DNA of 64,000 bases from Escherichia phage Ptacy1532: the sequence record PQ863255.1. The stretch is one strand, 5' to 3'. The notes under the pieces are model-generated. The model did not search any database and was not told the DNA's origin. It was given only the letters and a program-made list of their open reading frames with translations. Below, piece after piece: positions 47,113-51,839 of this stretch; the first letter of the stretch is position 1, and every line of letters starts with the position of its first letter. The position numbers were made by a program, and so were the translations under genes.

Positions 47113-47224
47113 ATTTCCTCTCATTGAATTTAAAAAAGGACTCTCCGAAAAGAGCCAAGCTTTAAATCCAAAAAAGATATTACCCAATATCTGTGGATAA
47201 CCTGCTCTTAAAATATCTATCCGA

Positions 47225-47345
47225 CGGATGTTCGAGGATTGTTCCTCTCCCTAGCATCGGCCCCATACGGGAAATATATTAAGATTAGGTTAGTTGAGTC
47301 AGAATAACTCACATAGCCCTCCGAAGAAGGCTATAGGCGTTACTA
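47225..47345 (-). promoter_or_regulatory. conserved intergenic element, copy A (hairpin TATAGCC..GGGCTATGTGAG, then GCTAGGGAGAG and CTCGAACATCCG boxes)
   Basis: About 120 nt sharing ordered blocks with 54055-54178; starts right at the stop of the upstream gene. Confidence 0.35.
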
Positions 47346-47348
47346 CAA

Positions 47349-49459: not shown

Positions 49460-49710
49460 TTAGAATCCTTAATAACGTTAGCTTCAACCTTAACAGGAAT
49501 AACAGAGATGCCCTCAACGGGGCCACTTAAGTGTCCATCTTCCAGTCTGACACACACGACTCGATCTCGTGCAACTTCTACCCAATTAGTAGATGCCGCA
49601 GTACAGACCATATGAATTGGACCGTTCTCTTCCAGCCGGAAGGTATCGCCCTTCTTCAGAGTGTGGAGTTTCACAGTCTTGATAGTTTTGTTCAATTCGT
49701 TAACTTTCAT
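49456..49710 (-). CDS. small protein of the tandem ~80-aa paralog family
   Basis: Family pattern; LHTLKKGDTF. Confidence 0.5.
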   Translation of the reverse strand: MKVNELNKTIKTVKLHTLKKGDTFRLEENGPIHMVCTAASTNWVEVARDRVVCVRLEDGHLSGPVEGISVIPVKVEANVIKDSK

Positions 49711-49718
49711 ATTGATTC

Positions 49719-50030
49719 CTATTTAAGTTTCAGGCTAATATTAAGGTGCATACATGCCCTGTTCTGTACAGCAGCATAGCTTCTACCGAGCATGTCAGCC
49801 ATTCTCTGAATAGGCATGAACCCAGCATTACGGATAAGGAACTGATCTTCTTCTTCAGACCACTTAACTCGGATTGAAGCTCTTGATATTCCGAACTTAG
49901 TGCAAGCTGTGTTAACAGCATTCTCCGTTACATTCATAATCTGAGCAACTTCTTTAACCGAGTACTCTTTGATTAATCTCCGAAGATTTTCAATCTGCAT
50001 CGGAGTCCATATAGTTCTTCGCGCTTTCAT
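49719..50030 (-). CDS. DNA-binding protein with two helix-turn-helix-like segments
   Basis: SVKEVAQIMNVTENAVNTAC and IQRMADMLGRSYAAVQNRA resemble tandem HTH units. Confidence 0.45.
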   Translation of the reverse strand: MKARRTIWTPMQIENLRRLIKEYSVKEVAQIMNVTENAVNTACTKFGISRASIRVKWSEEEDQFLIRNAGFMPIQRMADMLGRSYAAVQNRACMHLNISLKLK

Positions 50031-50510
50031 ATACCCTCCAATTAAAAAGAAGAAAACTATCAGGGGAGTACACTAGCTCTGGGCCACGCTGTAGACATCG
50101 GCCTACCTTCCACAGCTAATCAGCTAATGTACTCTCCTAATAGTTTATGAATAGGGGGAGGGGACGAATCCTCCCATATCCTATTAATTAATATTGCATG
50201 TAAGATCTAACAATCGGTTGCCTTTGTAGGAATAAGCGTTATGCTAATCCAGCACTAAACTCCCGCCCCCTTAGTGGGCTGGGTTATTAAAGGGTAACGC
50301 CCTTATGGGCTAGTTACGTGAATGTTAGTTTGATAGGAGATCTGAAGTCCTATCTCAAAGGACTCTCGTAAGAATCCTTCACGATATTACTTATTCAACT
50401 CTCGTCGGCTATCTCTCCAAGCCAACCAAGTGTAGATTTTCAACTCTTCAAAATCTTCTGGAGAGAATAGATATTCTTTGAAGGTGTCACCAAACCACTC
50501 TAAAAATTCT

Positions 50511-50711
50511 TCAGTCACAAATACCTCTTGCTTTATAGGTGGTACAGATTAATGTTGCATGTCTTTGGTTATACAGTTCGAAGTAATGAGGCTTGCTCCA
50601 GTCTCTGTCTCTGGTAAAGGATTGAAGAATGAAGTGCCTGTCACATCCAAGCCATTCAGAAACATCCATCGCTAGACGTATAGGAGAACCTCTGAATTCC
50701 CTCCGCTCCAT
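50511..50711 (-). CDS. hypothetical protein
   Basis: 66-aa ORF. Confidence 0.4.
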   Translation of the reverse strand: MERREFRGSPIRLAMDVSEWLGCDRHFILQSFTRDRDWSKPHYFELYNQRHATLICTTYKARGICD

Positions 50712-50722
50712 TTAAACCTCTC

Positions 50723-50896
50723 TTAGCAAGACTGGTCACAAGGTTGATCTCCGCATGTTTTACAGATCACTGGTGAGTAACTACAGGCAGGATACACTGA
50801 CACACCATCCCATGTCTCACACCCACAGTCAGGACATGTGCCGTTAGATTCCATGTCATCATCGTCGTCTATTTCACCGCCACCAAAACAACTCAT
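50723..50896 (-). CDS. small Cys-rich protein (57 aa; probable zinc-binding)
   Basis: ATG with strong AAGGAG RBS; multiple CxxC pairs (CPDCGC, CKTCGD, CDQSC). Confidence 0.4.
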   Translation of the reverse strand: MSCFGGGEIDDDDDMESNGTCPDCGCETWDGVSVYPACSYSPVICKTCGDQPCDQSC

Positions 50897-50905
50897 ACAG
50901 GCTCC

Positions 50906-51127
50906 TTAGTAAACTAAACCTATAGCCTTTGCATCGGGCTGAGGGACTACCTTTGCGCTAGGGCGATAGCCATCCACTGAACCATTCCAAAGGTTGACAC
51001 AGGTAATATACCCATCGTCTATGATGTCTGTTTTAATCCAGAAGTGTTTATCATGACCAAAGATACTTCCGTTTGGCAGCGTGGACAGTTCAGCGGTTTT
51101 AAGTGACTGCTTAGAGTCTAGTTTCAT
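50906..51127 (-). CDS. small protein of the tandem ~80-aa paralog family
   Basis: LSTLPNGSIFGHDKHFW ... NLWNGSVDGY; closest to 54173..54391. Confidence 0.5.
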   Translation of the reverse strand: MKLDSKQSLKTAELSTLPNGSIFGHDKHFWIKTDIIDDGYITCVNLWNGSVDGYRPSAKVVPQPDAKAIGLVY

Positions 51128-51764: not shown

Positions 51765-51839
51765 TGGCGTTCCCTCGTGGAATCGAACCACGAATAAGAG
51801 CTTAGAAGGCTCCAGTTATATCCGTTTAACTAAGGGAAC
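51765..51839 (-). tRNA. tRNA-Arg (anticodon UCU)
   Basis: Cloverleaf folded by hand: acceptor GTTCCCT/AGGGAAC, D-stem GTTA/TAAC, anticodon stem GGAGC/GCTCT with loop CTTCTAA, T-arm CGTGG-TTCGATT-CCACG, encoded CCA. Confidence 0.8.

What the first reader, a model, noticed from the sequence alone, without database searches (positions are those of the whole stretch)
50031..50510. 480-nt gene-poor gap containing a long imperfect inverted repeat
Between genes 49719..50030 and 50511..50711 there is no ORF above threshold. The gap contains a roughly 15-bp inverted repeat (GGGGAGTACACTAGC ... GCTAATGTACTCTCC, about 50063-50137) enclosing about 45 nt, a duplicated CAGCTAAT, and GC-rich runs (GGGGGAGGGGACGAATCCTCCC). 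It may encode a structured RNA, a processing site or a protein-binding site. A 43-aa GTG-initiated ORF with an AGAGG RBS at the upstream edge is possible but weak.
Basis: seen in the sequence. Interest (0 to 1): 0.4.

Follow-up and report, generated by a model that had tools for sequence, protein, structure and literature searches.

The report
Mobile structured RNA modules in phage gap
The "empty" gap in this phiEco32-like coliphage holds about 330 nt of conserved RNA hairpins read on the minus strand; unrelated N4-like phages carry the same hairpins, and there the long hairpin sits directly in front of a tmRNA-like tag RNA, but what the RNA does has not been tested.

Summary
The window is a Kuravirus, 99% identical to vB_EcoP_WFI101126. 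The 43-aa ORF (50387-50518) belongs to a conserved family (PHROG 9481), so the non-coding stretch is 50031-50386.

It holds two units, both on the minus strand, which is the strand of the early genes:
- **Long hairpin, 50054-50146 (93 nt).** It has a 25-bp imperfect "clamp" stem and an apical stem. In 16 distinct homologues 94.9% of pair cells are paired, against 34-47% when the partners are slid. Eleven pairs change on both sides.
- **Multi-hairpin RNA, 50147-50386 (240 nt).** It has six hairpins, a possible long-range helix and an invariant 19-nt linker.

G-U counts favour minus-sense RNA. Rfam and ARAGORN find nothing.

The same modules occur, as mosaics, in N4-like Gamaleyavirus and Kaypoctavirus tRNA islands. 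There the clamp stem is conserved but what it encloses varies, and it lies immediately 5' of a tmRNA-like tag stretch. That stretch is absent from this window.

Best reading: these are co-transcribed, horizontally exchanged structured RNA modules, and the clamp is a portable processing or boundary hairpin. Structure, strand and conservation are shown. Processing and function are inferred.

The parts
50387..50518 (-). 43-aa gene (GTG start, stop UAA at 50387-50389). It is not part of the RNA element but shortens the gap. The RNA element begins right at its stop codon.
   Evidence: PHROG 9481, E = 2e-25, residues 1-43. Annotated in WFI101126 (gp106) and phiEco32 (phi32_101).
50147..50386 (-). 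'C-B' unit: a 240-nt multi-hairpin non-coding RNA that starts at the upstream stop codon and ends with hairpin H6.
   Evidence: Present in all Gordonclarkvirinae hits and in all Gamaleyavirus loci examined. MFE -71.8 kcal/mol, z = -3.8. No Rfam match.
50357..50380 (-). H1: GAAGGAUUCU-UACG-AGAGUCCUUU, a 10-bp stem with a UACG tetraloop.
   Evidence: for coordinates. Variants keep the pairing: A-U becomes G-C in the Salmonella phage L017, and U-G becomes C-G (L079) or U-A (L086 and the upstream Gamaleyavirus copy).
50332..50354 (-). H2: GAUAGGA-CUUCAGAUC-UCCUAUC, a 7-bp stem with a conserved 9-nt loop.
   Evidence: In 37 distinct sequences, 258 of 259 pair cells are Watson-Crick. Two pairs switch A-U/G-C between the Kuravirus type and the Gamaleyavirus type. 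It occurs only once in the window.
50207..50328 (-). Central domain, possibly closed by a long-range helix CUAAC(A) (50323-50328) with (U)GUUAG (50207-50212). It encloses H3, H4 and H5.
   Evidence: Predicted in the single-sequence MFE and by RNAalifold. 184 of 185 cells are Watson-Crick and 1 is G-U, but both strands are nearly invariant, so covariation cannot test it.
50294..50317 (-). H3: GUAAC-UA-GCCC-AUAA-GGGC-GUUAC. Suseptimavirus and Gamaleyavirus carry a different hairpin, GCUCAAUGUUGAGC, at the same place.
   Evidence: Per-allele folds; alignment.
50262..50283 (-). H4: a GCCC/GGGC hairpin with a G-rich 3' side. It has two alleles, and each allele occurs in both phage families. It is absent in G7C.
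50229..50250 (-). H5: GGAUUAGC-AUAAC-GCUUAUUCC, a hairpin whose sequence varies widely.
   Evidence: About a dozen distinct hairpin-forming stem-loop sequences at this position, for example GGAUAGCUUAGCUAUCU, GGAUAGUAUCGCUAUCU and GGUAAGCGUUUUACGCUAUCC.
50194..50212 (-). Linker UGUUAGAUCUUACAUGCAA, invariant except for one R position. It is the best candidate for a recognition surface. Its GAUCU could pair with the H2 loop AGAUC.
   Evidence: Invariant in the 37 distinct sequences that were selected by this motif (one R and one Y position were allowed in the search), whereas its flanks vary; sequences with other changes in the linker would not have been collected. For the loop-linker pairing, the variable position gives 19 U-A, 17 U-G, 1 C-G and 0 C-A. 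This is suggestive only.
50150..50185 (-). H6: AAUAGG-AUAU-GGGAGG-AUUCGUCC-CCUCCC-CCUAUU. Two stacked 6-bp stems with a continuous 3' strand and a 4-nt bulge on the 5' strand, giving a minihelix-like shape.
   Evidence: The inner stem is 221 Watson-Crick plus 1 G-U of 222 cells, and L017 carries two double changes (AGGCGG/CCGCCU). A hairpin of the same form but different sequence precedes the clamp in L156.
50054..50146 (-). 'Seg A': a 93-nt clamp hairpin. The long stem is 50122-50146 with 50054-50078. The apical stem GCUGUGGA/UCUACAGC is 50109-50116 with 50088-50095. A possible pseudoknot is GGCC 50100-50103 with GGCC 50082-50085.
   Evidence: 94.9% of cells are paired. Eleven pairs change on both sides. 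The apical stem is 100% paired, with 3 of 6 pairs covarying. The pseudoknot pairs hardly vary (three of four never, one on one side only), so they are untested.
50031..50053 (-). U-rich spacer and GGAGG ribosome-binding site of the downstream regulator gene (49719-50030). Homology with the N4-like phages ends here, just after GAUAGUUUUC.
   Evidence: The regulator matches PHROG 323.

Best explanation
The gap encodes non-coding RNA, read from the minus strand as part of the long early transcript. It has two self-contained modules that move between phage genomes independently of the flanking genes. The first is a 240-nt multi-hairpin RNA (C-B). It starts at the stop codon of whatever gene lies upstream and ends in a minihelix-shaped hairpin (H6). 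Its invariant 19-nt single-stranded stretch is the likely contact surface for a host or phage partner. The second is a 93-nt clamp hairpin (Seg A). I propose that this 25-bp stem is a portable endonucleolytic processing or boundary element, most simply an RNase III-type site. In this phage it would cut the early transcript between the C-B RNA and the mRNA of the downstream regulator gene. That would give the RNA a defined 3' end and the mRNA a structured 5' end. In N4-like, lambdoid and Ackermannviridae phages the equivalent clamp marks the 5' edge of a tmRNA-like tag RNA. Shown: non-coding status, structure, strand preference, conservation, modular exchange and the clamp's position in other phages. 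Inferred: transcription as part of the early operon (from published work on SU10 and phiEco32), cleavage at the clamp, the enzyme, and any trans-acting role for C-B.
For: Non-coding: there is no conserved ORF, and homologues differ by indels and swapped hairpin alleles. Structure of Seg A: 94.9% of cells paired against 34-47% for slid partners, 11 pairs with double changes, and 0 of 500 shuffles reach the observed covariation score. RNAalifold finds the same fold on its own. Structure of C-B: H1, H2 and H6 show compensatory changes, and H3 to H5 are replaced by other hairpins at the same positions. Strand: in the Seg A helices the minus sense gives 62 G-U and 29 mismatches, while the plus sense gives 14 G-U and 77 mismatches. 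The minus strand also folds about 10 kcal/mol better. All neighbouring genes are on the minus strand. The corresponding SU10 genes lie in the early class, which is driven by sigma70 promoters far upstream (PMC4281155). Modularity: the genes upstream of C-B fall in at least four unrelated PHROGs, and the downstream neighbours differ too. Both H4 alleles occur in both phage families, and L055 is a chimera. Clamp as a boundary element: the stem is kept while the enclosed insert varies from about 40 to 125 nt and is unrelated between Gamaleyaviruses. Clamps of unrelated sequence sit immediately 5' of GUUUUCG... in HK633, Serratia 2050H1, L188 and L156. In Klebsiella phage VLCpiS13b a sigma70-like promoter (10 of 12 matches) occupies that position instead. 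Genuine permuted tmRNA genes carry a long, variable, excised hairpin at the analogous place. At 25 bp the stem meets the length that RNase III needs (established knowledge).
Against: There are no transcript, end-mapping or cleavage data for any of these phages. Only 18 of 129 matching records cover 80% or more of the gap, which they cannot do without Seg A, so Seg A is dispensable for Kuraviruses. The sampled diversity is shallow: two phage lineages that exchange this DNA. Several covariations may therefore trace back to a few events. Some alleles may have arrived by separate transfers rather than by selection in place. The long-range helix and both proposed pseudoknots rest on nearly invariant sequence. 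A clamp with a variable insert also occurs 3' of the tag in other phages, so clamps could be structural arms rather than cleavage sites. No partner for the 19-nt linker was found.
Confidence: 0.5

Rival explanations
1. Seg A is a relic. It was carried into some Kuraviruses when the C-B-A block was acquired from an N4-like phage, in which it belongs to a tmRNA-like tag RNA gene. Cut off from the tag, it has no function of its own here.
For: The tag stretch is absent from the window, and homology with the N4-like phages stops just after GAUAGUUUUC. Seg A is patchy among Gordonclarkvirinae. In phiEco32 and 4E8 other sequence takes its place.
Against: The copies in Kuravirus and Suseptimavirus remain fully paired, with several different stem variants such as GGAGAGUAC/GUACUCCCC, AAUGAGUGC/GCACUCUUU and GGAGAGUGU/GCACUCCCC. 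The position after H6 always carries some hairpin, also in phiEco32 and Suseptimavirus. Both facts argue for a selected structural role at this site.
Confidence: 0.2
2. The region is a cis-acting leader or attenuator for the downstream regulator gene. Seg A plus the following U-rich run would act as a terminator or translational operator, or the hairpins would simply protect mRNA ends.
For: Seg A ends 14-24 nt before the GGAGG and ATG of the regulator gene and is followed by UUUUCUUCUUUUU. In some relatives H6 is followed by UAUUUUAUU, and the 4E8 annotators marked a terminator there.
Against: The scan finds no terminator-like site in the gap. The base of the stem next to the U-run is A-U rich, and the G-C part lies 6 nt away. 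A terminator here would cut off roughly thirty downstream early genes. The same modules precede unrelated genes, or RNA genes, in other phages. A 240-nt RNA with six hairpins and an invariant linker is more than end protection needs.
Confidence: 0.1
3. The feature acts as DNA: a cruciform or single-strand hairpin used as a replication or recombination signal, a binding site for the adjacent regulator, or a promoter for the phage sigma factor gp36 (consensus tAATGTAtA).
For: The inverted repeat is perfect enough to extrude. TAATGTAC lies at 50125-50132 on the plus strand. G-T wobbles are tolerated in DNA hairpins.
Against: TAATGTA is not enriched in the window: 16 found against 10.2 expected, and 7 of 100 shuffles reach 16. 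Published gp36 promoters lie upstream of genes 6, 13, 26, 40, 58 and 68 (PMC4331800). The motif is also present in N4-like phages, which are not known to encode gp36 (from my own knowledge; not checked here), and on the plus strand it would drive antisense transcription. No sigma70-like promoter lies on the minus strand. Presence of the hairpin does not track the regulator gene. There is no target-site duplication, and Seg A replaces sequence rather than being inserted. All 16 distinct copies have the same orientation, which argues against an invertible segment. The wobble asymmetry favours one transcribed strand.
Confidence: 0.07
4. The gap encodes a small protein that was missed.
For: Some records annotate 40-aa CDSs over the homologous region, for example PhAPEC5 gp55.
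Against: There is no ORF of 25 aa or more in 50077-50386 on any frame. Homologues differ by indels that are not multiples of three and by swapped hairpins. Substitutions follow base pairing, not codons.
Confidence: 0.02

Closest known systems
Intervening hairpin of permuted (two-piece) tmRNA genes (Rfam RF04321; Keiler, Shapiro and Williams 2000, from my own knowledge)
   Same: A long stem with a variable loop lies a few tens of nucleotides 5' of a resume codon and tag frame. It is seen in the genuine permuted tmRNAs L154, L150 and L162. It is also seen in the N4-like, lambdoid and Ackermannviridae phage copies of the clamp. In the N4-like phages H6, or a tRNA-like ...GCCA end, precedes the clamp, where the T-arm, acceptor 3' strand and CCA precede the intervening hairpin.
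   Different: The window has no tag frame. There is no ACCA before the clamp and no GGGG...UCGAC after it. The G-rich strand lies on the opposite side from the one it would occupy as an acceptor stem. H6 has no G3:U70 pair and no T-loop. Rfam scores are below threshold in the relatives, and there is no match at all in the window.
RNase III processing hairpins between phage T7 early genes, and the stems flanking 16S and 23S rRNA (established knowledge)
   Same: An imperfect RNA duplex of 20-25 bp inside a polycistronic early transcript, lying between functional units. It is portable and not tied to particular genes. For the rRNA case, a conserved stem encloses an RNA that gets released.
   Different: There is no sequence similarity and no cleavage data. 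The T7 sites have a characteristic internal loop, whereas this stem has a conserved single A-C mismatch and an apical stem with a possible pseudoknot.
Small stable RNAs of unknown function in phage tRNA clusters (T4 species 1 and 2, rnaC/rnaD; from my own knowledge)
   Same: Structured non-coding RNAs of unknown function encoded alongside tRNA genes and produced by processing of a longer transcript. In N4-like phages these modules sit inside the tRNA island, and the window has tRNA-Arg 1.4 kb upstream.
   Different: BLAST against the phage collection found no similarity to T4. Here the modules recur across unrelated phage families as mosaics.
GOLLD and ROOL large non-coding RNAs of phages and prophages (Rfam)
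   Same: Complex-fold RNAs with conserved linkers and variable hairpins, found near phage tRNA genes, with unknown function.
   Different: Those RNAs are much larger (about 580-800 nt) and occur in Firmicutes and relatives. There is no Rfam hit here even at E = 10.

Membership tests
tmRNA (RF00023, RF04321 permuted) | Tag reading frame with a resume codon (for example ...AUAAAU GCA AAC GA...) ending in hydrophobic residues and a stop | tested here: not met
   No match to ACATAAATGCAAACGA with up to 3 mismatches anywhere in the window. The frame is present just after the clamp in N4-like relatives.
tmRNA (RF00023, RF04321 permuted) | tRNA-like domain: acceptor stem with G3:U70, T-arm with a T-loop, 3' (A)CCA | tested here: not met
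   ARAGORN finds no tmRNA in the window. The outer stem of H6 has A-U, A-U, U-A at positions 1 to 3, its loop is AUUCGUCC, and it is followed by CAUA. The G-U at the third pair of the plus-strand reading of Seg A is specific to this window and is G-C in PhAPEC5.
tmRNA (RF00023, RF04321 permuted) | Covariance-model score at or above the gathering threshold | tested here: not met
   No tmRNA hit in the gap even at E = 10. Relatives score 19-33 bits against a threshold of 47, and only over the clamp and tag.
tRNA | Cloverleaf with anticodon arm and T-loop, detectable by ARAGORN or RF00005 | tested here: not met
   The only tRNA in the window is tRNA-Arg(UCU) at 51765-51839.
Intrinsic (Rho-independent) terminator | Short G+C-rich hairpin immediately followed by a U-tract | tested here: not met
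   The scan reports no such site within 50031-50386. The only one reported in 49500-51000 lies at 50636-50652, inside a gene. The tail after H6 is CAUAAACU. The G-C part of Seg A lies 6 nt from the U-run.
RNase III substrate | About two turns (20 bp or more) of mostly Watson-Crick RNA duplex | tested here: met
   The stem has 25 positions, of which 22 are complementary by the repeat finder's count and 24 form standard pairs once G-U wobbles are counted (in RNA sense one A-C mismatch). 17-21 bp are conserved in relatives.
RNase III substrate | Cleavage by RNase III in vivo or in vitro | not testable with these tools
   No experimental data were found.
phiEco32 gp36 promoter | tAATGTAtA upstream of middle or late genes, in the direction of the genes | tested here: not met
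   There is a 7 of 9 match, on the antisense (plus) strand only. The heptamer is not enriched. Known sites are elsewhere.
Sigma70 promoter | -35 and -10 hexamers with 16-18 bp spacing on the coding (minus) strand | tested here: not met
   No site on the minus strand in 49500-51000.
MITE or other inverted-repeat mobile DNA | Clean insertion with target-site duplication, and empty sites in relatives | tested here: not met
   Compared with 4E8 and phiEco32, Seg A replaces about 37 nt or a whole gene, with no duplication.
Any Rfam 15 family | Match at the gathering score | tested here: not met
   The best hits in the gap have E = 1.7-9 to unrelated miRNA and sRNA models.

The most novel reading that the evidence does not exclude
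The gap may hold the tag-less front part of an undescribed, widespread class of phage tmRNA-like RNAs. H6 would be a minihelix stand-in for the tRNA-like domain, and Seg A would be the counterpart of the excised intervening hairpin of permuted tmRNA genes. The 240-nt C-B RNA would be a new complex-fold RNA that coliphages of unrelated families trade with each other. It would act on host translation or tRNA and tmRNA handling, for example as a decoy for processing or rescue factors.
Probability: 0.15. Interest if true: 0.8.

Novelty: new variant of a known kind. Interest (0 to 1): 0.5.

Why it matters
Kuraviruses and Gamaleyaviruses are being developed for therapy, and their early regions are mostly unannotated. 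Three points follow:
- This gap is annotated as empty or as spurious small CDSs in public records, but it carries selected RNA structure.
- Two unrelated coliphage lineages, Gordonclarkvirinae and N4-like Schitoviridae, repeatedly exchange non-coding RNA modules. This implies a host-directed function that does not depend on the phage's own transcription machinery.
- The clamp hairpin links this locus to a tmRNA-like tag stretch found in 183 phage records of several families. That stretch is unannotated in most of the records I looked at, and my searches found no paper describing it.

If the clamp is a processing signal, it gives a concrete way to look for discrete small RNAs in these phages. 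If the tag RNAs are functional, trans-translation may be a target of phage manipulation.

Tried and rejected
- **Rfam.** Gathering mode over the whole window and E-value mode over the gap gave only noise. Related loci gave only tRNAs and sub-threshold tmRNA hits.
- **ARAGORN.** No tRNA or tmRNA in the gap.
- **Host origin.** BLAST against 5,426 complete E. coli genomes and against PLSDB plasmids found no match.
- **Wider distribution.** Pattern scans of IMG/VR, metagenomes and GTDB genomes returned only the same two phage lineages plus chance hits. One MAG contig is a Kuravirus fragment.
- **Promoter and terminator scans.** Nothing on the minus strand in the gap.
- **gp36 promoter idea.** Rejected.
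- **Seg A as a tRNA or tmRNA acceptor stem.** The G3-U70-like pair exists only on the plus strand of this one phage.
- **H6 as a true T-arm.** The loop lacks the T54/A58 pattern.
- **MITE or invertible-segment ideas.** Rejected.
- **A shared upstream protein.** The 43-aa ORF and G7C gp47.2 are unrelated, and the upstream genes fall into four PHROGs.
- **Pseudoknots.** The H2 loop-linker pairing and the GGCC-GGCC pairing in Seg A are compatible with the data but not demonstrated.
- **Target search for the 19-nt linker.** Not feasible with the tools. An 8-mer shared with 16S rRNA is what chance would give.
- **Literature.** Searches for Kuravirus transcriptomes, G7C non-coding regions and phage tmRNA-like RNAs found no description.
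Full report
**What the window is.** The region 49700-50800 is 99% identical to Escherichia phage vB_EcoP_WFI101126 (Kuravirus, Gordonclarkvirinae, the phiEco32 group). It matches 115 phage records. All genes around the finding are on the minus strand. In the SU10 genome paper the corresponding genes belong to the early class, transcribed by host sigma70 RNA polymerase from promoters far upstream (PMC4281155).

**Checking the observation.**
- The inverted repeat is larger than reported. Its arms are 50054-50078 and 50122-50146, 25 nt each, 88% complementary, enclosing 43 nt.
- As RNA of the minus strand the 93-nt hairpin folds at -44.6 kcal/mol (z = -7.2). As plus-strand RNA it folds at -34.7 kcal/mol (z = -5.5). 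The whole gap gives z = -5.3 and -4.3.
- The 43-aa GTG ORF (50387-50518) is not weak. It matches PHROG 9481 over its full length at E = 2e-25 and is annotated in relatives.
- The non-coding stretch is therefore 50031-50386. No ORF of 25 aa or more lies within 50077-50386.
- ARAGORN and Rfam find nothing in the gap. The only RNA gene in the window is tRNA-Arg(UCU) at 51765-51839.

**An unexpected distribution.** A sensitive BLAST of the gap hits 129 phage records. These include Gordonclarkvirinae (Kuravirus, Suseptimavirus and a Salmonella relative). They also include N4-like phages of the Schitoviridae (Gamaleyavirus G7C, PhAPEC5, Mimir124 and others, and Kaypoctavirus KP8), at about 78-88% identity. 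In those phages the matching DNA lies in a roughly 2-kb stretch without credible genes. That stretch lies between the gp47 and gp48 homologues and contains tRNA genes and many non-canonical tRNA-like sequences. It is oriented the same way relative to transcription. Nothing similar exists in 5,426 complete E. coli genomes or in PLSDB plasmids. Pattern scans of IMG/VR, metagenomes and GTDB genomes recover only these two phage lineages.

**Anatomy (minus-strand sense).** I call the parts C, B and A.
- **C-B (50386 down to 50147, 240 nt)** begins exactly at the UAA of the upstream gene. It contains:
  - H1 (50357-50380, UACG tetraloop).
  - H2 (50332-50354, conserved loop CUUCAGAUC).
  - A central domain that may be closed by CUAAC/GUUAG (50323-50328 with 50207-50212). 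It holds H3 (50294-50317), H4 (50262-50283) and H5 (50229-50250).
  - The linker UGUUAGRUCUUACAUGCAA (50194-50212), which was the search motif used to collect the homologues.
- H6 (50150-50185). This is two stacked 6-bp stems with a continuous 3' strand and a small bulge on the 5' strand.
- **Seg A (50146 down to 50054)** is the long hairpin. It has a 25-bp stem with one A-C mismatch, an apical 8-bp stem and a possible GGCC/GGCC pseudoknot.

**Evidence for structure in Seg A.**
- In 16 distinct homologues 94.9% of pair cells are standard pairs, against 34-47% when the 3' partners are slid by 1-3 columns.
- Eleven of 37 pairs show changes on both sides. No shuffle out of 500 reaches the observed covariation score.
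- The apical stem is 100% paired, with three of six pairs covarying.
- RNAalifold, with no input from me, predicts the same long stem and apical stem.

**Evidence for structure in C-B.**
- H2 is Watson-Crick in 258 of 259 cells across 37 distinct sequences, with two pairs switching between A-U and G-C.
- The inner stem of H6 is paired in all 222 cells. The Salmonella phage carries two double substitutions.
- H1 shows A-U to G-C, and U-G to C-G or U-A.
- H3, H4 and H5 are replaced in different phages by other hairpins at the same positions. H5 has about a dozen stem sequences.
- The long-range helix appears in the single-sequence fold and in the alignment fold. Like the two possible pseudoknots, it involves almost invariant sequence and remains untested.

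**Which strand, and RNA or DNA.** In the Seg A helices the minus-sense reading gives 417 Watson-Crick, 62 G-U and 29 mismatched cells. The complementary reading turns those into 14 G-U and 77 mismatches. The possible H2-loop/linker pairing shows 17 U-G and no C-A. Together with the better minus-strand folding energy and the orientation of all genes, this points to a function as RNA of the transcribed strand.

**Modularity.**
- The genes just upstream of C-B belong to at least four unrelated families (PHROGs 9481, 14773, 13462 and 6570) or to none. The downstream neighbours also differ.
- phiEco32 and most Kuraviruses have C-B without Seg A. Only 18 of the 129 records cover 80% or more of the gap, which they cannot do without Seg A.
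- KP8 has Seg A without C-B, placed 5 nt after a tRNA-like ...ACGGGGAGCCA.
- Gamaleyaviruses have a second, upstream copy of the H1-H2 unit and an extra module between the two copies.
- The two H4 alleles each occur in both phage families, and one metagenomic phage (L055) is a chimera of the two types.
- The units therefore behave as self-contained modules exchanged by recombination between phages that share hosts.

**What the long hairpin is next to in other phages.** In Gamaleyaviruses the stem CUAUCGGGGAGUACAUU...AGUGUACUCCCCGAUAG is conserved. The enclosed insert differs completely between phages, ranges from about 40 to 125 nt, and is tRNA-like in G7C.

In most N4-like loci examined (PhAPEC5, Mimir124, PBM-3, phi G17, nithesis, KKP 3715, KP8 and several metagenomic relatives), the stretch immediately 3' of the stem, after GAUAGUUUUCG and about 45 nt, resembles a tmRNA resume region and tag. 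In G7C, K57alpha1.2, SP5M and the first phi G17 copy a different sequence follows the clamp.
- Example: AUAAAU GCA AAC GAU GAU GUU GUU CUG AUG GCN GCN UAA, which reads ANDDVVLMAA.
- The final Ala-Ala codons vary synonymously (GCA GCC, GCU GCU, GCG GCG).
- Rfam's permuted-tmRNA model hits these at 27-33 bits, below its threshold of 47.

A BLAST with this stretch finds 183 phage records of very different kinds:
- N4-likes and Ackermannviridae.
- Lambdoid HK633, where it lies between pR'/qut and the holin gene.
- Klebsiella, E. coli and Salmonella siphoviruses of 45-48 kb, where it lies next to tRNA genes.
- In the listed records the stretch is almost always unannotated.

In HK633, Serratia phage 2050H1 and two metagenomic phages a clamp of unrelated sequence sits at the same place, directly 5' of GUUUUCG. 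In Klebsiella phage VLCpiS13b a sigma70-like promoter (TTGACA, 17 nt, TAGATT) sits there instead. Genuine permuted tmRNA genes found in the same scans have, at the analogous position, a long hairpin with a variable loop. It lies between the CCA end and the 5' acceptor strand and is excised during maturation.

The window has no tag stretch. Homology with the N4-like phages stops just after GAUAGUUUUC, where the ribosome-binding site of the regulator gene begins.

**Best-supported explanation.** The gap encodes structured non-coding RNA made as part of the early transcript. The clamp looks like a boundary element that marks the 5' edge of the RNA that follows it. It is kept as a duplex regardless of its contents. 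It lies where a promoter lies in a phage in which the downstream RNA has its own start. It also resembles the excised hairpin of permuted tmRNA precursors.

Its length suits RNase III. The closest working analogies are the T7 early-region RNase III sites and the rRNA flanking stems. In this Kuravirus the clamp would separate the C-B RNA from the mRNA of the regulator gene.

C-B, with six hairpins and a 19-nt linker that is conserved in every copy collected, is more elaborate than a processing signal needs. It travels independently of any gene. I therefore take it to be a stable RNA that acts through that linker on a partner common to E. coli hosts. The same RNA would be transcribed by host polymerase in Kuraviruses and, if these genes are transcribed as their N4 homologues are (my own knowledge, not checked here), by the phage RNAP II in N4-like phages. 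This argues against a polymerase-directed role such as HK022 put.

I put 0.85 on a selected RNA structure on the minus strand. I put about 0.4 on the clamp being a cleavage site. I have no specific confidence in any target for C-B.

**Rivals.**
- **Seg A is a relic here (0.2).** It would have been carried along from a tag-RNA gene. Its patchy presence and the missing tag fit this. The fully paired, variant stems within Kuravirus and Suseptimavirus, and the constant presence of some hairpin after H6, speak against it.
- **A leader, attenuator or end-protecting element for the regulator gene (0.1).** No terminator signature is found, and the neighbours are not conserved.
- **A DNA-level signal or gp36 promoter (0.07).** The TAATGTA match is antisense and not enriched. 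There is no target duplication or inversion. The wobble asymmetry points to RNA.
- **A missed small protein (0.02).**

**Comparison with known systems.** The feature is not a member of tmRNA, tRNA, intrinsic terminator or any Rfam family; each defining feature I could test failed in the window (see the membership table). It works most like an inter-cistronic processing hairpin combined with a stable RNA of a phage tRNA island, as with T4 species 1 and 2. It is positionally analogous to the intervening hairpin of permuted tmRNA genes. I found no publication describing it.

**Limits.**
- No expression data exist.
- Sequence diversity is shallow, and recombination means that covarying cells are not independent events.
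- The alignments of H3 to H5 were judged allele by allele rather than with a single covariance model.
- The tag-RNA lead lies outside the window and was only partly followed. In particular, I could not find what, if anything, provides a tRNA-like domain.

Noticed in passing
L002 (PhAPEC5) 2424-2456 minus; also L011 (KP8), L013, L019, L020, L026, L027, L031; L197 (HK633) about 741-802; L198; L199: A tmRNA-like resume region and tag frame (ANEEAYLMVA, ANDDVVLMAA, ANEEMYLAVA, ANEEVYLAVA, ANDNAYLMVA), with synonymous variation in the last two Ala codons. It follows the clamp hairpin in N4-like phages. It matches 183 phage records of several families and is unannotated in nearly all of the 40 records listed. 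Rfam scores are below threshold, ARAGORN is silent, and no acceptor stem with G3:U70 was found.
   Followed up: partly
window 47113-47348 (minus strand): A second non-coding gap in the early region. Part of it (about 47191-47230 and flanks) is homologous to the module that separates the two H1-H2 copies in Gamaleyaviruses. The CCGAUG/CGUCGG versus CUGACG/CGUCAG stems and a CCC/GGG versus GCC/GGC mini-hairpin show compensatory changes. It also contains a 9-bp hairpin with a UUCG loop.
   Followed up: partly
window 47132-47156 (minus strand): A terminator-like hairpin, GGCUCUU-UUCG-GAGAGUC followed by CUUUUUU, lies in the middle of the early gene block just before the next gene's ribosome-binding site. 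It is not annotated in the WFI101126 record.
   Followed up: no
L011 2208-2331 minus; L002 1874-1997 minus: A roughly 125-nt tRNA-like element with an encoded ACCA end and a GGUUCGAAUCC T-arm. Its 7-bp acceptor stem shows two compensatory changes between KP8 (UACUGGU/ACCAGUA) and PhAPEC5 (UACCAGU/ACUGGUA). ARAGORN does not call it. The N4-like islands hold several such non-canonical tRNA-like sequences.
   Followed up: partly
L030 2499-2518 (IMG/VR contig of 63.8 kb): The exact H6 apical hairpin GGGAGGAUUCGUCCCCUCCC recurs in an apparently unrelated viral contig. There it sits inside a different multi-hairpin (GCGACA...UGUCGC), just upstream of an ORF with an HNH-endonuclease-like motif.
   Followed up: no
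L055 (metagenome contig); H4 alleles across L002-L025: There is evidence of repeated recombination between Gordonclarkvirinae and Gamaleyavirus inside the element. Both H4 alleles occur in both families, and L055 joins a Gamaleyavirus-type 5' part to a Suseptimavirus-type 3' part.
   Followed up: partly
window 50548-50562 versus 50187-50201: A 15-nt direct repeat, ATTAATGTTGCATGT / ATTAATATTGCATGT. On the minus strand it overlaps the invariant linker (ACAUGCAAUAUUAAU). The second copy lies inside the 66-aa gene 50511-50711.
   Followed up: no
window 50125-50132 (plus strand): TAATGTAC resembles the phiEco32 gp36 promoter core tAATGTAtA, but it is antisense to all genes, and the heptamer is not enriched in the window (16 against 10.2 expected).
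   Followed up: yes
L012 (Klebsiella phage K57alpha1.2) 705-3407; L002 2197-2316 and 2573-2695: Public annotations place protein CDSs over the non-coding RNA island: a pseudo 'tail spike protein' in K57alpha1.2 and 40-aa hypothetical proteins in PhAPEC5. These are probably artefacts.
   Followed up: no
window 51765-51839 (minus strand): tRNA-Arg(UCU), the only RNA gene detected in the window, lies 1.4 kb upstream of the finding on the same transcript strand.
   Followed up: no
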